This document shows positions 8,989 through 16,173 of a stretch of 64,000 nucleotides of DNA, piece by piece; the first letter of the stretch is position 1; the number at the start of each line of letters is the position of its first letter. Made by a program: the position numbers and the translations under genes. The DNA lies in IMG/VR virus record IMGVR_UViG_3300044719_000048, positions 96,001 to 160,000 of that record; one strand, given 5' to 3'. This DNA comes from a virus. Its lineage: Duplodnaviria > Caudoviricetes. The notes beneath the pieces are model-generated. The model made no database searches. It had not been told where the DNA came from and saw only the letters and a program-made list of their open reading frames with translations.

Positions 8989-9477
8989 CTAGAAAGGACC
9001 CGGCTGCGTCTGCCAGCAGGTGATACCACGTTCACGCCACATCGCAACGGTCGAATCGCGGTCTTCGATGACCAGCAGGATGCGGTCGAGCGAGTAGCCA
9101 GCCTCTTCGATCAGGCGGGGCTTGAGCACAGTGTCGTGCTCCTTCTCACTGTCGAGTGGACGCATCAGCAACTTGGACTGATCGATCTGAAAGCCGAACA
9201 GCTCTTGCAGCTGCAGGGTCGTGTACTCGCGGCAAAGCTCAGAACGGCCGGTGACGAACAAGTATTCCAGAGACTGGGTGTCTCGTACCATGTCGAGGAA
9301 CATCCCATACACGACATGCCCTGCCGGAATCGTCTTGTCCGTGTGGTACAGATTGTCGTATGTCTCGCGGTCGCCATTCAGGAAATGTGGGAGACGCTCC
9401 TCCGAATCTACGAGACACCCATCGATGTCCAAGATGATCAGGTTCTTTTGGGTTTGGGTGATCTGTACGTGGTTCAT
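8989..9477 (-). CDS. HAD-superfamily phosphatase (polynucleotide kinase 3'-phosphatase-like)
   Basis: [17 protein letters not shown]...K, IEDR...VAMWR..GITC. Confidence 0.85.
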
Positions 9478-10157
9478 TTATGGCTCAGGGTAACGAACTC
9501 GGAACGAGTTTCGGGATTGCGGAAAGCGCCGCCGACCTTGGACGTCACCGTATCGGAACAGGCGTCTTCCACGCCGCGCGTTTTCACGCACATATGTTCG
9601 GCTTCGATGATGACGGCAACGTCTTCGGTTTCCAGAATGAAGCACAGGGCGGCGTGAATCTGTGCGGTCAAGCGCTCCTGCACTTGCGGGCGGGCAGCAA
9701 AGAACTGCACGATGCGATTCATCTTCGACAAGCCCAAGACCTTGGCGCCCGGAATGTACGCCACGTGAGCCTTGCCGATGATGGGCAACAAGTGGTGCTC
9801 ACACGTCGAATTCAGCGTGATGTTGCGCTCGAGCACCATCTCGTCCACGTGCATCTTGTTCTCGATGACCGTGCACTTAGGGAACTCATCGTAGTTGAGC
9901 CCCTTGAAGACCTCGTTCATGAACATTTTCGCCACGCGCGTCGGCGTCTCGCTCAGGCTGTCGTCGAGCAAGTCGAGATGCAGTTCCTCCATTATGGCGT
10001 GCACATGGCGTTCGATACGACTCAGTCGGCCAGCATCGTACTGAGCGTCCTTTACGGAAAGAGCGAGAGACTGCGGCACCTGCAACATCGGCGTTTCGAT
10101 GCCGAGCTGCTTCAGATGCTCGTTGACCAGCTTGCCCAGTTGAGGGTCGTTCTTCAT
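9474..10157 (-). CDS. folE: GTP cyclohydrolase I
   Basis: [41 protein letters not shown]. Confidence 0.97.
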
Positions 10158-10167
10158 GTTGTTCCTT

Positions 10168-10965
10168 TCAGGCTAATGCACAGATGGTGTGCATCTGAAT
10201 AGACAGACGCAGATTGTTTTTCAGCGCGTACGCGGCTGCGTAGCGGTAGTTGGCGGCCGTCTGCTCCTGATCGACGAGCTCAGCGTCCCATATGCTGGAG
10301 ACTTCGCCTTCATAGGGCTTCCGGTAGACGGTCATTGGCGAAACCATCACGATCTTGTGACTGCGCAGCGCCCACTCAGGAATCGTGTGATGCGCCGACT
10401 CCGGATCGGCAGAGATCACGAACTTGTATGCGTGCGCCCACCACTGGACCTTCTCAGGCACTTGCGGGTACTTCTTGAGTCGCTCGTTCGCCTTTGGGCT
10501 GACGATGAACTCCAGTCGGTCGTCGCCAATCAAGCCCATGTGCTCGGCCTGCTCGAAGAACTTCGGCTGCGTGCCGTTCGTTTCCACTTGGATAGCAGAG
10601 AAATGGCACAGGGCTTTGGTGATCAGCGCCAGTACATTGGCTTGCAGCGTGGGCTCTCCGCCAGTGATGACCAAGATGTCTGAGGGGGAGTAGCCCTTGA
10701 CCCGCAGCAGGACCTCGAGCACGGTGTCGATGTTCAGAATCGAGGCCTTATCGAATTGGAACGACGTGTCGCAAAACAAGCAGTGGTCGGTCTTCGATCC
10801 GTAGTTGCATCCCGCGAGACGAAGGAAGACCGCGGGCTGTCCGGCCCGTGTTCCTTCTCCTTGCAGCGTACGGAACCAAGATGTCACGCGTAATCGATTG
10901 TCCATGAAGCGGTAGTCACGGGCACTGATATTGCGGTCTTGGTTTTGAACTTGGATGGGTATCAT
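10168..10965 (-). CDS. queE: 7-carboxy-7-deazaguanine synthase (radical SAM)
   Basis: [20 protein letters not shown]8CX2C + DT, ITGGEP, ETNG, SPK, LSIQMH; likely start MIPIQ. Confidence 0.92.
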
Positions 10966-11393
10966 GGCGCTTTCACCTTCGAGTTGAAGACCCGGTCGTT
11001 GTAGCACAACCGGGATTGCATACGAATGAAGGACTTGGGGAGCCCTTCCTCTACGTTATTTACGTAGTAGTCGTACAGCTGCTTCGTCGTCGGAATGTTG
11101 TTGTACTTGGGGATCTCTACTGAGACCTCGTTCGGCATCAGCGACTTCGGATCCGGCATACTAGTGCGCGTCCAGATGCCGGAGCCTTTTGTGTAATGCC
11201 ATCCGAGGATAGGCACACCTGCCGCGTGCAGATATGCCAGTCCGGAGACCACAACGAGAAATTTGTGCTTGCGCTTTGCTTTCTCGATGTTGTGGACTCC
11301 GATTGCGAGGTCGACGTTGCCCGAAGCCCATTTGCGGAACTCCGGTGACAGCGATGGATACCCGTAGACGTTCTTTGCTTTGAGTACCCTCAT
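10962..11393 (-). CDS. Hypothetical protein inside the deazaguanine operon
   Basis: 143-aa ORF with 4-bp overlaps on both sides. Confidence 0.7.
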   Translation of the reverse strand: MRVLKAKNVYGYPSLSPEFRKWASGNVDLAIGVHNIEKAKRKHKFLVVVSGLAYLHAAGVPILGWHYTKGSGIWTRTSMPDPKSLMPNEVSVEIPKYNNIPTTKQLYDYYVNNVEEGLPKSFIRMQSRLCYNDRVFNSKVKAP

Positions 11394-12832
11394 TTCTTCC
11401 CTTTCTTGGTTGACATGCCGTGGAATTCCTCATAGCGCATGATGGCCTTCGTCACGTTGGCCTCGGCCTTCTTGTGCTGCTCGTTGACCTTCTGCGCCGC
11501 AGTGAATAAGCCCTTGTCCTCCTTGTTCTTCCGCATGAACTCTTTCAAGGCTGGGCCGTGCTTGGTCCACGCCCTGTCGAAGCCCTTGTCCATGTCGCAA
11601 ACGAAAGCAAAAAGCATGCGGTAGAGAGGCCACAGGGCCTTGCGCGGCTGAATGGTCAGCAGCAACTCGTCCAGAGGCAGCTTGCCATTCAAATACATCT
11701 TGGTCATAGACGCAATGATCTCGGCCAATCGACGTTGCACGAACAGCGTATGGATTGCGTTGGCGTCCTGCGACATACGATAGACTTGTGCATCGCCAGC
11801 CAGATTGCAGACCGGGCAGTTGCACGCCAGCCCGAACGGAGCGGCGAGGGTCTCCAACGGACCTGCCGATACTTGGTCCTTGCGGCTGATGATCGTGCCC
11901 CTTGTCCAGAACGACAGGCTTGCCTGACTGTACGTCGAGGAGTCCGCAGTGATGAACGGCGCCGTCTCGTTCAAGGTCAGAATGTTGTAGAGCGCGATGT
12001 GCAGCGGGCTCATCGTCCCCAGAATGTGGAACCGATCATATACACCCTTGGAGCGGCACAACACATAGCACATGTTGATGACCGAGGCCGTTACCGAAGT
12101 CAACTGGTTGTCGTAGTTTGCTTGACCGATACCGCCCATAGACAGGCCGGAGCCCACCTTGTGCTTCAGCACGTAGTCGAGGAACTTGGCGCGATTCTCC
12201 AGTGTCAACCCGTGCGACACATCGTAGAGCTCGCAACCACTTCCCTTGATCTTCTTCGAGATGTACTCGTTGTTCTTCAGCATGACCTTGCACATGCGGA
12301 GGAACCAGTCGGTGCCCTGAAGGTGGCGAGGAACCGGAATGTCCATGCCGATGCCTATGTTTATCTTCTTCGCGTAGAAGTGCGAGACCTCATCGAGGTC
12401 CATGAACTCGGTCACGCCCTTCGACAGCTGGAAGCCACCTGAGTCAGACACCACATGGACCTTACCGTTGCGCCGCACGTAATCCGAAGTGGCCAGACGT
12501 TCCGGCGTGACCATCATCATGTTGTACCCGGCTTCGAGCATGAACTCAGGGGCTGTAAGCGGCGACAGATGCGTGGCCCGGTCGAACTCGAAGTCAGGAA
12601 TACCGAAGGTAGCACCGTTGCCGCGACCCACGAACACTGTCTTATCCTTGAGGTAGATCGTGTGCAGACCCTTCACTCTCTCGGACGTGTAAGGCTTCTT
12701 GGGTGTGCCGTAACGTACTCCGAGGAAGCTGTTCAGCGCCATCGAGTTGACGGCGGCCGGCATCAGAGATACGCGAGGGTTGACCGACTCTTTGTTCAGC
12801 AGCTTGTCGAGTGGAAGGCAGTCAGGTTTCAA
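11390..12832 (-). CDS. TGT-superfamily transglycosylase, probably DpdA-like (DNA 7-deazaguanine insertion)
   Basis: SDSGGFQ, MDIP, MGG, HILG, ADSST (nucleophile Asp), CNCPVC...H zinc site; preQ0 gene context. Confidence 0.85.
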   Translation of the reverse strand: MKPDCLPLDKLLNKESVNPRVSLMPAAVNSMALNSFLGVRYGTPKKPYTSERVKGLHTIYLKDKTVFVGRGNGATFGIPDFEFDRATHLSPLTAPEFMLEAGYNMMMVTPERLATSDYVRRNGKVHVVSDSGGFQLSKGVTEFMDLDEVSHFYAKKINIGIGMDIPVPRHLQGTDWFLRMCKVMLKNNEYISKKIKGSGCELYDVSHGLTLENRAKFLDYVLKHKVGSGLSMGGIGQANYDNQLTSVTASVINMCYVLCRSKGVYDRFHILGTMSPLHIALYNILTLNETAPFITADSSTYSQASLSFWTRGTIISRKDQVSAGPLETLAAPFGLACNCPVCNLAGDAQVYRMSQDANAIHTLFVQRRLAEIIASMTKMYLNGKLPLDELLLTIQPRKALWPLYRMLFAFVCDMDKGFDRAWTKHGPALKEFMRKNKEDKGLFTAAQKVNEQHKKAEANVTKAIMRYEEFHGMSTKKGKK

Positions 12833-13592
12833 AGTCAGCCTCGTTCGATGTGATGTAGTCGGGAGGCAAGGCCGGAAGGATCTCGCTCTTGCGATCTTCG
12901 TCGTAGTGGTCGCCGGACTTCATGGCGTTCACCAGCTCGCGTAGCTCTCTGGTCTGGAGTGGATCAACGTTGTATTGCTCTTGGGCGATGCCGAGCTGGC
13001 GGAAGATACCCCACCGGCGCAGGCAGACAACGCAGCGACCGCAGTTACCGGCCTCACCGGACAGGCAACTGCTGCTGTGCTTGATCTGCTGTTCCGTGAT
13101 GCCGTTCTTCAACGCCCACTCGACAGCGCGCAGCTTGTTCATTTTGGCTTCCGCCAGAGGAAAGCGAACCTGGACGTTCGACTTGAACGGAGCCAACACG
13201 TAACCGAGCGTCTCGTTCATGAGCTCTACGAACGCCCAGTTCTTGTCGGTGGCACTGTCGTGGGTTTCGCCTTGGAGTGCACCCATCCAGATTTGATCGG
13301 GCAGATACATGCAGGCAGCCGCAGTGGCCAACAGCATGTTGCGCCCCGGGATGTAGATGTTGCCGGAGGCCGACCCTTCTTTGGACTTCAGTTGGCCGTC
13401 GATGTCCACGTTCAGCCACGGCAGATCGCGCTGAATCACGTAATCAGGGAGAGCCGCGATCTCCTTGGCGGCATACTCCTGGCCGATGTTGTAGAACACG
13501 CAGGTAACGGTTGCGTCCGGGTAGTTGACCTCGGCGTAACGCTTCATGATGAGCGAGTCGAGGCCTCCGCTGTATAAGATGAGGATATTCAT
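12822..13592 (-). CDS. queC: 7-cyano-7-deazaguanine (preQ0) synthase
   Basis: LYSGGLDS PP-loop, GQ.Y...E, YIPGRN, SC...CGRCVVC. Confidence 0.93.
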   Translation of the reverse strand: MNILILYSGGLDSLIMKRYAEVNYPDATVTCVFYNIGQEYAAKEIAALPDYVIQRDLPWLNVDIDGQLKSKEGSASGNIYIPGRNMLLATAAACMYLPDQIWMGALQGETHDSATDKNWAFVELMNETLGYVLAPFKSNVQVRFPLAEAKMNKLRAVEWALKNGITEQQIKHSSSCLSGEAGNCGRCVVCLRRWGIFRQLGIAQEQYNVDPLQTRELRELVNAMKSGDHYDEDRKSEILPALPPDYITSNEADFET

Positions 13593-14126
13593 TTAGATTG
13601 GCTTGCTATTGTTAGAGGTTTGGTTCCTGAAAAGGCCGCGATCGCCTTCGACCACGTGATCGATTTCCTCGTGAGGGAAGACGATCCAGTCAGAAGTGGT
13701 CATACCTGCAATATTTACTCGACTGCGGATGGACTCATCCACGTTGTTATCGAGCACCGCAGGCACGAACTCGGCGCTTACGTGGCTCCCATAGTAGGCT
13801 GCGTGTGCCGTCAGAACCTTGGTCAGCGTGCGTCCCTGCGCCACCACGTCTTCCAGATAGACGAACACCGCTCGGTCATCGTTCGTCAGGTCATCCCACG
13901 TTGGGTGCTGCACTCGCATCGGGTGCGGCGAAGCCATAGGGAAGACCACTCCGAGAGGCAGTGCCATCTTGTAGGCTACGAGCTGGCCGAACGTCAGGCC
14001 GCCCCGGGCGATAGCGAACAGGAACAGCCTGTCGGCCTTGATCTGCTCGGCGTATTTCACTCGGAGTTGTTCAACCACGTGGTTGGCAACGTCCTTCAGT
14101 TGTTCGTAGGTGAGGTAGACTTTCAT
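13593..14126 (-). CDS. Type I phosphoribosyltransferase, Gpt/XGPRT-like
   Basis: AIARGGL, PRPP loop YLEDVVAQGRT, WIVFPHE. Confidence 0.85.
   Translation of the reverse strand: MKVYLTYEQLKDVANHVVEQLRVKYAEQIKADRLFLFAIARGGLTFGQLVAYKMALPLGVVFPMASPHPMRVQHPTWDDLTNDDRAVFVYLEDVVAQGRTLTKVLTAHAAYYGSHVSAEFVPAVLDNNVDESIRSRVNIAGMTTSDWIVFPHEEIDHVVEGDRGLFRNQTSNNSKPI
13712..13719 (-). promoter_or_regulatory. AGTAAATA motif, internal, about 120 bp before queC
   Basis: Exact octamer, co-oriented. Confidence 0.4.
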
Positions 14127-14989
14127 AGTGGGTACGTGACATTCAATCCGAAGTTGGCGGCCGGCGTGTTGTAGCTTTCCACCCAGCGCACGATCTCGTT
14201 GTAGTTCGCGAACATTGTCTCATAACCGGCCGCACTGAATTCCTTGGGGTGCTTAATCGCGAGCTCCTGCACCTTCAAGGCCTTGCACAGCGCATTCAGA
14301 GTAGCCGAATCGGACAGCTTGTCGGTCTCGACGTGAATGACGTTCGGCAAGGCGTGCACCAATCGTTTGTGAACATCGAGACGACGAAGCATACGGCGTG
14401 CGTAGTCTTCTGGCATCGCCAGCTTAGTGGTCTTGCGTGCTTCCTCCTGTTCCGGGCATGGAGCGAAGATGCCAGTGTAGTCGCAGGCAAAGTTGCTGCA
14501 CAGCCACTTGACCAGGTCCGAAGGCATGAGGTTGATGGTCACGTCGAAGCCTTTCAGCACGGCATCCATCCACAGGTCGTTGGGAGCTTCCACGTCGCCC
14601 ATGAGCGTGACGATTTGGGTCTTCACCACATAGCTGAACTCGCGGTATCGGTTCAGCAGCGTCCTCAGGTAGTAGATGTGCTGATCAGTCAACACTTCCT
14701 CGTAGTGGCATTCCACGTAGCACATGGAGTGGTGCCGCGCCACGGGCAGGAAGGAAGAACCGCTGAAGTCCTTGAAGTGCGGATGCGTGCGGAACAGGAT
14801 GGCGTGCTCTGGATCGAACGGCTTCACAGCTTCGTACCCGAACTTGTATCCGTGGAACGACCATCCGTGGAAGTACTCACCCAAGTGCTTCTCGCTGCCA
14901 ATGGTCAGCGTGCGGCCCAAGGCCGTGTTTATCGCGTCTTGCAGGGACTTGCTTCCCGTACGCTGCATGCTCAGGATATGGACCTTCAT
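14123..14989 (-). CDS. Putative PAPS-dependent sulfotransferase (Stf0-like)
   Basis: N-terminal ILSMQRTGSKSL 5'-PSB loop followed by GEYF; C-terminal YETMFANYNEI resembles the Stf0-like tail; start MKVHIL follows the APS-kinase stop. Confidence 0.7.
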   Translation of the reverse strand: MKVHILSMQRTGSKSLQDAINTALGRTLTIGSEKHLGEYFHGWSFHGYKFGYEAVKPFDPEHAILFRTHPHFKDFSGSSFLPVARHHSMCYVECHYEEVLTDQHIYYLRTLLNRYREFSYVVKTQIVTLMGDVEAPNDLWMDAVLKGFDVTINLMPSDLVKWLCSNFACDYTGIFAPCPEQEEARKTTKLAMPEDYARRMLRRLDVHKRLVHALPNVIHVETDKLSDSATLNALCKALKVQELAIKHPKEFSAAGYETMFANYNEIVRWVESYNTPAANFGLNVTYPL

Positions 14990-14990
14990 G

Positions 14991-15668
14991 TCAGAACTCC
15001 AGAATGAATTTGTTTCCGTCCCACGACGGGAAGCCTTTGGCACAGACGTTGTACTTCTCGACGCAGTACTCTACCGTCATCGAAGGCGTCATGTGGCCTC
15101 GGATGTCGAACGAAGAGGCCAGCCGTTCTTCTCTAGTAGCGGCGTCGATGATGCGCCACTTGAGGTCCGAACCATTGTGCAGAGTGTTGAACCGAATGTG
15201 GTAGGTCCTCATCTGATCGGTGACGGCCTGGACAACGATTTTGGCGGCTTCCTCAAAACGCGGTTCGTCCAGATACTTGTTGAACTGCAGATCGGGAGTA
15301 CCGACGTACGGCTGGAACAGCTTGTTGGTGTCCTCGAAACGGCCTTCCTGAATGGTATTCATGAACACCGTGAAGACCTTGTTCTCTCCGTCGGCCTCTG
15401 CCGCACTGAAGTAGGCAACGCGAGTGTCGTTCGTCGGATTCACGAAGTCCACGACTGTCCACTGATTCTTGACAGTCAGCGCTGCGATATGTCCCAGTGC
15501 GTAAGCCTGCTTGATGCGGTCCACTTCCGTGAAGCCCAGATGGGAAGTCACCGTGGACCGCGCCCAGTCGGCGTTGATGTGTACAGCGTTCAGAAGTGCG
15601 GCCACCTTGCGAGCCAGCGTGGTCTTGCCCGAACCCGGAAGGCCGATGATAGTGATGATCTTACGCAT
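14991..15668 (-). CDS. cysC: Adenylyl-sulfate (APS) kinase-like protein with C-terminal extension
   Basis: IGLPGSGKTTLA, NAD..R, LGFTEVDR..Q, VDFVNP, GRFEDTNKLF. Confidence 0.8.
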   Translation of the reverse strand: MRKIITIIGLPGSGKTTLARKVAALLNAVHINADWARSTVTSHLGFTEVDRIKQAYALGHIAALTVKNQWTVVDFVNPTNDTRVAYFSAAEADGENKVFTVFMNTIQEGRFEDTNKLFQPYVGTPDLQFNKYLDEPRFEEAAKIVVQAVTDQMRTYHIRFNTLHNGSDLKWRIIDAATREERLASSFDIRGHMTPSMTVEYCVEKYNVCAKGFPSWDGNKFILEF

Positions 15669-16118
15669 TTATGCTCCCATGTAGATTGCGCTGTTAGATT
15701 CGTGCTCGGAGACTTCAACCGACACGAGCGTGACGCGGTCTCCGTAACCGGCGTCCTTCAACCACTGCTCAGCCACCTGGTAGGTGTACTCGGCGAATTT
15801 CTCGCACCCGCCTGCAGGAAGTTCTACCAACCGCAGGACGCCTAGGCGATGACCTTCACGGAACCACTCGATCTGCGGGTCGTCGGAAGCCACGATGGTA
15901 GTGTGATCGAACGTATCGGCCAGAATCTGCTTGAGGGACTTGACGCCGCCGAAGTCGACCACCCAGTTGCGCGCGTCCAAATCCTCTGCCGAAAACACGA
16001 ACCTGAAAGCCAACGCGTATCCGTGCAGAAGACGGCAGTGCGAGTCAGCCCGCCACTGGCGGAAGGCGCAACTGAAACCAGTGGAATGCGGGTAGTGTTT
16101 TGTGCTCTGATAGGACAT
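15669..16118 (-). CDS. queD: 6-carboxy-5,6,7,8-tetrahydropterin synthase
   Basis: FRQWRADSHCRLLHGY, WVVDFGG.K, FDHT, GCEKFA, EHESNSAIY. Confidence 0.93.
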   Translation of the reverse strand: MSYQSTKHYPHSTGFSCAFRQWRADSHCRLLHGYALAFRFVFSAEDLDARNWVVDFGGVKSLKQILADTFDHTTIVASDDPQIEWFREGHRLGVLRLVELPAGGCEKFAEYTYQVAEQWLKDAGYGDRVTLVSVEVSEHESNSAIYMGA

Positions 16119-16137
16119 GTCGATCTCCGGTGTAGAC

Positions 16138-16173
16138 AAAAAAGTGCCCGGCAGATCGATTCAATCTACCGGG
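16138..16173 (-). terminator. Hairpin plus U6 in the queD leader (terminator or attenuator)
   Basis: CCCGGTAGAT/ATCTGCCGGG stem followed by CACTTTTTT. Confidence 0.6.

What the first reader, a model, noticed from the sequence alone, without database searches (positions are those of the whole stretch)
13593..14126. Gpt-like PRTase lacks the N7-binding Asp: a possible 7-deazaguanine PRTase
Seen: a Gpt-type scaffold (IARGG, WIVFPHE) whose PRPP loop reads LEDVVAQGRT. Established: HGPRT and Gpt have (E/D)D-x-x-D-T-G, and that last Asp contacts purine N7. Inference: Asp to Ala removes the N7 contact and makes room for a 7-substituent, as expected for a CDG/preQ0 PRTase. This would open a nucleotide-level route to modified dGTP analogues alongside transglycosylation. 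Alternatives: it salvages guanine released by the transglycosylase; APRT and Xpt also have Ala at this position.
Basis: partly seen in the sequence, partly recalled or inferred. Interest (0 to 1): 0.7.

Follow-up and report, generated by a model that had tools for sequence, protein, structure and literature searches.

The report
Rewired purine phosphoribosyltransferase beside phage QueC
A large uncultured phage carries, inside its operon for putting 7-deazaguanine into DNA, a guanine-salvage-type enzyme whose two guanine-reading residues have been replaced. It belongs to a small phage-only clade that always sits next to the QueC gene, so it probably attaches ribose-phosphate to a 7-deazaguanine base rather than to guanine, though no assay has shown this.

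Summary
Window 13593-14126 (minus strand) encodes a 177-aa type I phosphoribosyltransferase (PRTase) with a Gpt/HGXPRT-type fold. Its PRPP loop reads LEDVVAQGRT.

Ala96 aligns with the Asp that contacts purine N7. Invariant Asp126 stands where 6-oxopurine PRTases have the Lys that contacts O6. An invariant C-terminal tail, EGDRGLFR, is added.

These traits define a small clade, "class A", of about 82 clusters among 1.84 billion proteins. It separates from the other Gpt-like PRTases sampled with 100/100 support. No member was found in cultured phages.

In 26 of 26 informative loci, on at least three phage backbones, class A lies beside a variant QueC. It also occurs fused to a small HAD phosphatase or to a SAM methyltransferase.

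Other phage Gpt-like PRTases ("class B") keep the Asp, yet they also sit in 7-deazaguanine clusters. These include all three cultured phage groups that replace every G. So linkage to que genes does not depend on the Ala. Earlier notes of this scan report that general link in at least 56 other genomes. The class A traits were not in them.

Best reading (about 0.45): a PRTase for a 7-substituted 7-deazaguanine, comparable to TubE and ToyH. Main rival (about 0.25): guanine recycling. A route to a modified dGTP is not supported: this phage record shows no ribonucleotide reductase, MazG or T4-type dNMP kinase.

The parts
13593..14126 (-). Class A Gpt-like phosphoribosyltransferase, 177 aa (P0001). 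Key residues: RGG 41-43, ED 92-93, Ala96, GRT 98-100, Asp126, W147..E153, tail E160-R167.
13827..13853 (-). PRPP loop E92-T100 (EDVVAQGRT). Ala96 (13839-13841) stands in place of the N7-contacting Asp.
13749..13751 (-). Asp126, invariant in the 42-sequence alignment A1. It aligns (within one residue) with the O6-contacting Lys (K115 of XGPRT, K165 of human HGPRT).
13626..13649 (-). C-terminal EGDRGLFR tail. It is clade-specific and has low pLDDT (61-66), so it may be a mobile lid.
12822..13592 (-). Variant QueC, 256 aa. The PP-loop and four Zn cysteines are kept, but the canonical SGYPDCR segment reads SATDKN. Its ATG directly follows the PRTase stop codon.
11390..12832 (-). TGT/DpdA-like transglycosylase, 480 aa, with DSGGFQ, MDIP, DSS and C-x-C-x2-C motifs.
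10962..11393 (-). Conserved 143-aa orphan that follows the TGT-like gene.
10168..11007 (-). QueE, a radical SAM enzyme. The true start is probably the ATG at 10965.
9474..10157 (-). FolE, GTP cyclohydrolase I.
8989..9477 (-). Cap-less HAD phosphatase (PF25109 HAD_PNKP). It is related to the small HAD that lies directly upstream of class A PRTases elsewhere, or is fused to them.
14123..14989 (-). Protein of about 288 aa with a weak Stf0-sulfotransferase-like / P-loop-kinase-like fold. It is the immediate upstream neighbour of the PRTase and occurs only in the window-type subclade.
14991..15668 (-). APS-kinase-like P-loop kinase, 225 aa.
15669..16139 (-). QueD (PTPS family).

Best explanation
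The gene encodes an active type I phosphoribosyltransferase that descends from Gpt/HGXPRT-type guanine-salvage enzymes but has been re-specialised. It keeps everything needed to bind PRPP-Mg and to stack and read the pyrimidine face of a guanine-like base. These parts are the RGG PPi loop, the Glu-Asp pair, the GRT phosphate loop, the Trp147 platform and Glu153. It has replaced both side chains that read the O6/N7 edge of guanine (N7 Asp to Ala96, O6 Lys to Asp126) and has gained a conserved C-terminal lid. I infer that its substrate is a 7-substituted 7-deazaguanine made in the same operon. Candidates are the product of the adjacent variant QueC (the amide ADG or preQ0) or its substrate CDG. 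The enzyme would join this base to PRPP and give the ribonucleoside 5'-monophosphate, as TubE does with CDG in tubercidin biosynthesis. Ala96 would make room for the C7 substituent. Asp126 could accept a hydrogen bond from an amide or amine on that substituent. The fate of the nucleotide is open. It could be dephosphorylated by the conserved HAD phosphatase to a nucleoside, as in the ToyH/ToyI logic. It could be tailored further by the methyltransferase, or here by the sulfotransferase-like and kinase-like neighbours. Shown here: fold, motifs, residue replacements, clade structure, gene neighbourhoods and fusions. Inferred: substrate, product and downstream use.
For: (1) PRPP-binding and catalytic scaffold residues are invariant across 42 aligned members, while A96 and D126 are also invariant. 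123 of 133 family proteins have Ala. (2) Profile alignments to four solved 6-oxopurine PRTases place A96 on the conserved Asp; the three that extend that far (1VDM, 4Z1O, Yersinia XGPRT) place D126 on the conserved Lys. In human and Leishmania HGPRT-GMP structures these two residues make the side-chain contacts to N7 and O6: O6-Lys165, N7-Asp137 and N7-Lys165 (PMC2228302 Table 2). (3) Class A is one clade with 100/100 support on a long stem of 2.57 substitutions per site, a pattern consistent with a change of function. (4) Loci were fetched by PRTase motifs alone. In 26 of 26 informative non-redundant class A loci a QueC gene is the next or next-but-one gene. The loci lie on PolA-type, PolB-type and T4-like backbones. 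(5) There are natural fusions: HAD-PRTase (L010:9545-10525) and methyltransferase-PRTase (P0117/L050). (6) There is a precedent. TubE is a proven CDG-specific PRTase that rejects plain 7-deazaguanine, and its authors aligned it with S. solfataricus HGXPRT, which is also the best structural match here. Toyocamycin and tubercidin clusters pair a PF00156 PRTase with a phosphatase. (7) A salvage enzyme that had to exclude 7-deaza bases would be expected to keep its N7 contact, as class B does. This point is inference.
Against: There is no biochemical evidence. Ala at this loop position is ordinary in APRT, OPRT, UPRT and Xpt, so it is not diagnostic (my own knowledge). The operon encodes a TGT/DpdA-like enzyme that needs the free base, and the published view is that all phage 7-deazaguanine marks are added after replication (PMC10516641). 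A PRTase would then compete for the base. The triad of HAD, variant QueC and TGT-like gene exists without any PRTase in cultured Stenotrophomonas Menderavirus phages. So the PRTase is an accessory, and the HAD need not act on its product. Asp126 would repel the carboxylate of CDG, so the TubE analogy is imperfect. I could not obtain the TubE or ToyH sequences to compare the two positions.
Confidence: 0.45

Rival explanations
1. Guanine recycling. The enzyme converts the guanine released by the TGT/DpdA-like transglycosylase into GMP. GMP becomes GTP, which feeds FolE. This pulls the base exchange forward and closes a cycle. Class A would simply read guanine in a different way.
For: Gpt-like PRTases with canonical Asp (class B) sit next to FolE, QueD or QueE in IMG/VR loci L011-L017. 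The same holds in the cultured phages immuto_2-6A, Brevundimonas StAshley and Synechococcus BUCT-ZZ01. They also occur in phiST and in Campylobacter CPt10 and CP20. Those include the three groups with 100% G replacement. In the L005-type loci the order is TGT-HAD-PRTase, and in L010 the PRTase is fused to the HAD that follows the TGT-like gene. Earlier scan follow-ups on other genomes reached the same reading.
Against: Both side chains that contact O6 and N7 of guanine are replaced throughout the clade. The NCBIfam HGPRTase equivalog scores 21.6 bits against a cut-off of 150. Class A is placed beside QueC, the late step, and not beside FolE. Losing the N7 contact would make it harder, not easier, to tell guanine from the 7-deazaguanines that fill the infected cell (inference).
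Confidence: 0.25
2. A PRTase for another base, such as adenine or another 6-aminopurine. One source would be adenine released from 5'-deoxyadenosine or SAH made by QueE and the methyltransferases. Here Asp126 would accept a hydrogen bond from a 6-amino group, and the loop would be APRT-like with Ala.
For: The ED-x-x-A-x-G-x-T loop resembles the APRT loop DDLLATGGT (my own knowledge). A Lys-to-Asp swap reverses hydrogen-bond polarity at position 6 (inference). S. solfataricus APRT shows that an adenine enzyme can arise on this fold (Z 13.1). Radical-SAM and SAM-methyltransferase genes are neighbours.
Against: The Trp-x-x-x-Pro-x-Glu motif shared with 6-oxopurine enzymes is kept. The strict pairing is with QueC, which makes no adenine. 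The closest folds are 6-oxopurine enzymes, not APRTs.
Confidence: 0.12
3. First step of a pre-replicative route. The 7-deazaguanine ribonucleotide is phosphorylated, reduced and incorporated as a modified dGTP analogue by the phage polymerase.
For: Gpt-like PRTases are present in all three cultured groups with complete G replacement. The ADG nucleoside was reported in CP220-infected cells, and DpdA3 activity could not be shown in E. coli (both as stated in PMC10516641). A P-loop kinase lies two genes away. The T4-like carrier of a class A gene has an RNR.
Against: This phage record has no RNR of class I/II/III, no MazG and no T4-type dNMP kinase, although it is only about 80% complete. No enzyme that would deplete dGTP was seen. 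A TGT-like transglycosylase is present. The conserved partner is a phosphatase, which works against building a triphosphate.
Confidence: 0.1
4. A regulatory or non-catalytic PRTase-fold protein that senses PRPP or a nucleotide, like PyrR.
For: PyrR proteins are among the structural matches (Z about 14).
Against: All catalytic and PRPP-binding residues are invariant. The fusions to enzymes (HAD, methyltransferase) point to metabolism. No RNA- or DNA-binding feature was seen.
Confidence: 0.03

Closest known systems
Gpt-type and archaeal-type 6-oxopurine PRTases (S. solfataricus HGXPRT 4Z1O/5BQP, P. horikoshii PH0095 1VDM, E. coli XGPRT 1A95, H. pylori XGHPRT 7KL6)
   Same: The fold is the same small type I PRTase fold of about 150-180 aa (Z 15-16; profile E 2e-12 to 4e-7). 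The RGG loop, the acidic pair with the G-x-T PRPP loop, and the W-I-V-F-P-x-E base platform are shared.
   Different: The N7-contacting Asp is Ala and the O6-contacting Lys is Asp. An invariant EGDRGLFR tail is added. The protein scores far below the HGPRTase equivalog cut-off. The family is phage-only and always adjacent to QueC.
TubE (CDG-PRPP phosphoribosyltransferase, tubercidin pathway) and ToyH (toyocamycin pathway), Streptomyces
   Same: Both are PF00156 PRTases encoded with FolE, QueD and QueE (plus QueC for ToyH). They load a 7-substituted 7-deazaguanine onto PRPP and are followed by a phosphatase. The TubE authors aligned it with S. solfataricus HGXPRT, the best structural match here.
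   Different: They act in secondary metabolism in clusters that lack a transglycosylase, whereas this gene is in a phage DNA-modification operon with a TGT-like gene. I could not test the sequence relationship or the residues at the two key positions. Asp126 does not fit a carboxylate substrate well.
Class B phage Gpt-like PRTases (Flavobacterium phage immuto_2-6A gp211, Cellulophaga phiST gp064, Campylobacter CPt10 gp143, Brevundimonas StAshley, Synechococcus BUCT-ZZ01)
   Same: They are small Gpt-like PRTases with the W-I-V-F-P-W-E motif. They lie inside or beside phage 7-deazaguanine gene sets.
   Different: They keep DD-I-x-D-[ST]-G-x-T and lack the tail. They lie next to FolE, QueD or QueE rather than QueC. 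They fall on the other side of a 100/100 branch.
Adenine phosphoribosyltransferase (APRT)
   Same: It has Ala at the same PRPP-loop position (my own knowledge).
   Different: It belongs to a different subfamily. The closest folds and profiles for this protein are 6-oxopurine enzymes.

Membership tests
Type I phosphoribosyltransferase (PF00156) | PRPP-binding loop: an acidic pair followed by small residues and G-x-T | tested here: met
   E92-D93 and G98-R99-T100 are invariant. PF00156 scores 28.3 bits against a cut-off of 26.3.
Type I phosphoribosyltransferase (PF00156) | PPi loop (R-G-G) and a five-stranded Rossmann-like core | tested here: met
   R41-G42-G43 are invariant. The AlphaFold2 model has pLDDT 89.9 and Z 15.9 to solved PRTases.
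6-oxopurine PRTases (Gpt/XGPRT, HGXPRT, HGPRT) | Overall fold, aromatic base platform and W-x-x-x-P-x-[ED] motif | tested here: met
   W147 and E153 are invariant.
6-oxopurine PRTases (Gpt/XGPRT, HGXPRT, HGPRT) | Asp in (E/D)D-x-x-D-[TS]-G that contacts purine N7 | tested here: not met
   Ala96 aligns with that Asp in four solved enzymes. Ala occurs in 123 of 133 family proteins. The contact is documented in PMC2228302.
6-oxopurine PRTases (Gpt/XGPRT, HGXPRT, HGPRT) | Lys at the end of the strand after the PRPP-loop helix that contacts O6 | tested here: not met
   Invariant Asp126 aligns with the Lys of 1VDM, 4Z1O and XGPRT. A MAFFT alignment places it within one residue.
6-oxopurine PRTases (Gpt/XGPRT, HGXPRT, HGPRT) | Score above the NCBIfam HGPRTase equivalog cut-off | tested here: not met
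   TIGR01203 scores 21.6 bits against a cut-off of 150.
7-deazapurine PRTases (TubE/ToyH type) | Encoded together with the CDG/preQ0 synthesis genes FolE, QueD, QueE (and QueC) | tested here: met
7-deazapurine PRTases (TubE/ToyH type) | Phosphoribosyl transfer to CDG or preQ0 | not testable with these tools
   This needs an enzyme assay. TubE activity was shown in PMC6112128.
7-deazapurine PRTases (TubE/ToyH type) | Sequence kinship with TubE or ToyH | not tested
   No tool gave me the TubE or ToyH sequences. The alignment figure in the supplement is an image.
Adenine PRTase | Closest relatives by profile and fold are APRTs | tested here: inconclusive
   The top matches are 6-oxopurine enzymes. 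S. solfataricus APRT scores Z 13.1 against 15.9 for HGXPRT. Classical APRTs are not in the rows listed.

The most novel reading that the evidence does not exclude
Class A PRTase and its HAD phosphatase form a branch that turns a phage-made 7-deazaguanine into a free ribonucleotide or ribonucleoside. Lineage-specific neighbours then tailor it: a SAM methyltransferase in some phages, and in this window a Stf0-like sulfotransferase with an APS-kinase-like enzyme. The product would be either a diffusible nucleoside-antibiotic-like effector made by a phage, or the activated precursor of a DNA base not yet described.
Probability: 0.15. Interest if true: 0.85.

Novelty: new variant of a known kind. 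Interest (0 to 1): 0.6.

Why it matters
Phage 7-deazaguanine DNA modification is currently explained entirely by free-base synthesis followed by DpdA base exchange. None of the papers I could search mentions a PRTase in these clusters.

A phage-only PRTase clade that has lost both guanine-specific contacts and is fixed next to QueC points to an unrecognised nucleotide or nucleoside branch of this pathway. If it uses a 7-deazaguanine, it would be the first such enzyme outside Streptomyces antibiotic clusters. It would also be a ready biocatalyst for 7-deazaguanosine nucleotides.

The result bears on an open question as well. Phages that replace every G all carry a Gpt-like PRTase, and it is not settled how they achieve complete replacement. 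If the enzyme proves to be a guanine recycler, it still adds a missing helper step to the pathway.

Tried and rejected
- tblastn of P0001 and P0054 against 50,697 cultured-phage records found no match. megablast of the operon found no match.
- The window TGT-like protein gave nothing against immuto DpdA3 by BLASTP or hhalign (probability 3%). Its DpdA subfamily remains unassigned.
- The single TGT-like sequence gave no PDB hit. Only the family profile reached ArcTGT.
- The small HAD (alignment A3) gave no Pfam or PDB sequence hit. Its identity rests on the DxDGV / TGR / K / ESD motifs and on hhalign to the HAD_PNKP family (94.5%).
- The 143-aa orphan is not related to that HAD.
- The profile of the 306-aa neighbour had no PDB sequence hit. 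Only a mediocre model (pLDDT 65.7) matched Stf0.
- The ESM Atlas returned only generic PRTase clusters.
- TubE and ToyH sequences could not be obtained. Crippen et al. 2019 is not held.
- I considered that the HAD must act on the PRTase product. I down-weighted this after finding HAD, variant QueC and TGT-like genes together without a PRTase in Menderavirus.
- I considered variant QueC and class A PRTase to be an obligate pair. The same result rejects that.

Full report
**Observation.** The ORF at 13593-14126 on the minus strand encodes 177 aa (P0001). Pfam PF00156 is just above its gathering score, at 28.3 against 26.3 bits. PHROGs gives only a weak "phosphoribosyl transferase" hit. The NCBIfam HGPRTase equivalog scores 21.6 bits against a cut-off of 150. 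An AlphaFold2 model built on 42 homologues is confident (pLDDT 89.9, pTM 0.88), except for the last 18 or so residues.

Foldseek and VIA-align agree on the closest structures:

- S. solfataricus HGXPRT: Z 15.9, 147 residues aligned.
- P. horikoshii purine PRTase 1VDM: Z 15.4.
- H. pylori XGHPRT: Z 15.2.
- E. coli XGPRT: Z 15.0.

So the "Gpt-type scaffold" is confirmed.

**The active site.** A profile of the family aligns with 1VDM (E 2e-12), 4Z1O, XGPRT and H. pylori XGHPRT. In all four alignments Ala96 falls on the Asp of DD-x-x-D-[TS]-G. In the three alignments that extend that far (1VDM, 4Z1O, Yersinia XGPRT), invariant Asp126 falls on the Lys at the end of the next strand (AMKPW, YLKPW, FAKPAG). 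A MAFFT alignment puts it within one residue of that Lys. The contact table for human and Leishmania HGPRT with GMP lists O6-Lys165, N7-Asp137 and N7-Lys165 (PMC2228302).

Both side chains that read the O6/N7 edge of a 6-oxopurine are therefore replaced. What binds PRPP (R41-G42-G43, E92-D93, G98-R99-T100) and what stacks and reads the other face of the base (W147, P151, E153) is invariant. The family also has an invariant C-terminal EGDRGLFR motif, which the Asp-keeping PRTases examined here lack.

**The family.**

- Two independent protein searches find only 63 clusters (90% identity library) and 82 representatives (of 1.84 billion).
- 123 of 133 retrieved proteins have Ala at the loop position. 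Only one, an outlier, has Asp.
- tblastn of two divergent members against 50,697 cultured-phage records finds nothing.
- In a maximum-likelihood tree the Ala/Asp126/tail proteins ("class A", 22 rows) form one group. Support is 100/100 and the stem is 2.57 substitutions per site. They separate from Asp-keeping Gpt-like PRTases of phages ("class B") and of four MAG contigs.

**Genomic context.** I fetched loci from IMG/VR, metagenomes and GTDB genomes using PRTase peptide motifs only. I then located pathway genes by tblastn.

Of 28 non-redundant class A loci, 26 have a QueC gene immediately next to the PRTase, or separated from it by one small gene. Of the two exceptions, one contig ends at the PRTase itself. 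The other ends after a methyltransferase gene that elsewhere lies between the PRTase and QueC. In the window, the QueC ATG directly follows the PRTase stop codon.

The carriers have different backbones:

- PolA/primase phages of about 190 kb, syntenic with the window (L001, L003, L019).
- A PolB phage (L007).
- T4-like phages of about 128 kb (L005).

Three further features recur.

1. A small cap-less HAD phosphatase (DLDGV...ITGR...K...ESD; alignment A3) lies directly upstream of the PRTase in most non-window lineages. It is related to the window's HAD_PNKP gene (hhalign 94.5%, E 8e-8). In L010 the HAD and the PRTase form a single 327-aa ORF.
2. A class I SAM methyltransferase lies between the PRTase and QueC in L007, L010 and L026. 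It is fused to the PRTase in P0117/L050.
3. A TGT/DpdA-like gene is present. Its profile matches archaeosine TGT 1IQ8 at E 2e-5, and the DSGG-Q, D-P, DS and Zn motifs are invariant. The L010 homologue reaches Pfam TGT.

The adjacent QueC is itself a variant. It scores 53 bits against the equivalog cut-off of 150. The canonical SGYPDCR segment is replaced by ATDKN, with Asp and Lys invariant.

**Limits on the context argument.** The same variant QueC (45% identity), the same small HAD (hhalign 97.8%) and a TGT-like gene occur together without any PRTase in cultured Stenotrophomonas Menderavirus phages. The PRTase is therefore an accessory inserted between HAD and QueC. The HAD does not need it.

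Class B PRTases keep DD-I-x-D-[ST]-G-x-T, yet they too are embedded among QueD, QueE and FolE in IMG/VR loci L011-L017. The same applies to cultured phages:

- Flavobacterium phage immuto_2-6A has the order QueD-QueE-PRTase-FolE...DpdA...QueF.
- Brevundimonas StAshley has FolE-PRTase.
- Synechococcus BUCT-ZZ01 has QueE-PRTase-x-QueD-FolE.
- Cellulophaga phiST and Campylobacter CPt10/CP20 also carry one.

immuto, phiST and the CP220 group are the three groups reported to replace 100% of G (PMC10516641). That paper does not mention a PRTase. No paper in the searchable library links a PRTase to phage 7-deazaguanine clusters.

I found this wider link before opening the scan's earlier notes. Those notes show that other agents recorded the same link in at least 56 other genomes, and mostly read it as guanine recycling. 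The class A hallmarks were not in those notes.

**Interpretation.** Class B looks like a true 6-oxopurine enzyme placed at the GTP-consuming end of the pathway. Guanine recycling is a reasonable reading for it.

Class A is different. It has an intact catalytic scaffold, but both guanine O6/N7 contacts are gone. It has a new lid, a long stem branch, and a fixed position beside the late enzyme QueC. The simplest account is a change of base specificity toward something that differs from guanine at the O6/N7 edge. A 7-substituted 7-deazaguanine from the same operon fits that description.

There is a proven precedent. TubE transfers phosphoribosyl to CDG and rejects unsubstituted 7-deazaguanine (PMC6112128). 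Its authors aligned it with the same S. solfataricus HGXPRT structure. Toyocamycin and tubercidin clusters pair the PRTase with a phosphatase.

Chemically, Ala96 makes room at C7. Asp126 would suit a hydrogen-bond donor on the substituent (the amide of ADG or the amine of preQ1) better than the carboxylate of CDG. This last step is inference only.

**What is not supported.** The record is a 189.5-kb IMG/VR contig, about 80% complete. It shows none of the following:

- a class I/II or class III ribonucleotide reductase;
- MazG;
- a T4-type dNMP kinase;
- a second PRTase.

The conserved partner of the PRTase is a phosphatase. The route is not excluded, because host enzymes could serve, and the T4-like carrier of a class A gene has an RNR.

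**Neighbours in the window.** The gene just upstream of the PRTase (14123-14989) has no sequence-level family. A moderate model (pLDDT 65.7) best matches M. smegmatis Stf0 sulfotransferase (E 1.8e-5, TM 0.42-0.54) and then NMP kinases. The next gene is APS-kinase-like. This pair occurs only in the window-type subclade. It partly bears out a lead in the earlier notes. A sulfotransferase needs a hydroxyl or amine acceptor, and a ribosylated base would offer one. This is speculation and is scored only under the novel case.

**Verdict.** The enzyme is best filed as a new, phage-specific variant of the Gpt/HGXPRT-type PRTases that fails two defining 6-oxopurine features.

My estimates are:

| Reading | Probability |
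|---|---|
| 7-substituted 7-deazaguanine PRTase | 0.45 |
| Guanine recycling | 0.25 |
| Another base, such as adenine | 0.12 |
| Regulatory protein | 0.03 |

An enzyme assay with PRPP and the panel of bases would settle the question.

Noticed in passing
window 14123-15668 (minus strand): A Stf0-sulfotransferase-like protein and an APS-kinase-like P-loop kinase lie between QueD and the PRTase. The first has a model of pLDDT 65.7 that matches 1TEX at E 1.8e-5. The second scores 31.8 bits on apsK against a cut-off of 138.7. The pair occurs only in the window-type subclade. It may be a sulfation or kinase module acting on the modified base or nucleoside.
   Followed up: partly
window 12822-13592 (minus strand); L053:5992-6741: The QueC next to class A PRTases is a variant: the SGYPDCR segment is replaced by ATDKN, and it scores below the equivalog cut-off. 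The same variant occurs in cultured Stenotrophomonas Menderavirus phages, so its product could be tested there.
   Followed up: partly
L053 (Stenotrophomonas phage Ps15, NC_070951.1 83.4-89 kb): The Menderavirus cluster reads FolE, a hypothetical gene, a gene annotated as myo-inositol-1-phosphate synthase, the small HAD (annotated as polynucleotide kinase and probably N-terminally truncated by annotation), variant QueC, TGT-like gene and QueE. It has no PRTase.
   Followed up: partly
L010:9545-10525; L050:289-1326: Two natural fusions exist: HAD phosphatase with class A PRTase (327 aa), and SAM methyltransferase with class A PRTase (345 aa, P0117).
   Followed up: yes
L047, L048, L049, L051, L052 (cultured phages): Asp-keeping Gpt-like PRTases lie in or near the 7-deazaguanine genes of immuto_2-6A, phiST, CPt10, Brevundimonas StAshley and Synechococcus BUCT-ZZ01. 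These include every cultured group reported to replace all G. The papers I could search do not mention this.
   Followed up: partly
window 10962-11393 (minus strand): A conserved 143-aa orphan (NVYGYPSLS...NDRVF) always follows the TGT-like gene in window-type loci. It has no detectable family and is not related to the HAD.
   Followed up: partly
window 14989-15043 and 10965-11007: The longest ORFs of the sulfotransferase-like gene and of QueE start at upstream GTG codons. Homologues indicate the real starts are the ATG at 14989 and the ATG at 10965, which gives near-zero intergenic gaps along the operon.
   Followed up: partly
P0130 (195 aa, metagenomic): The N-terminal half of a class A PRTase is joined to a Por secretion (T9SS) C-terminal sorting domain. 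It may be a chimeric or misassembled ORF.
   Followed up: no
L026:1-1044: The class A PRTase frame ends early here, at residue 119 and before the W-I-V-F-P motif. It may be a decayed copy. A methyltransferase gene follows it.
   Followed up: no
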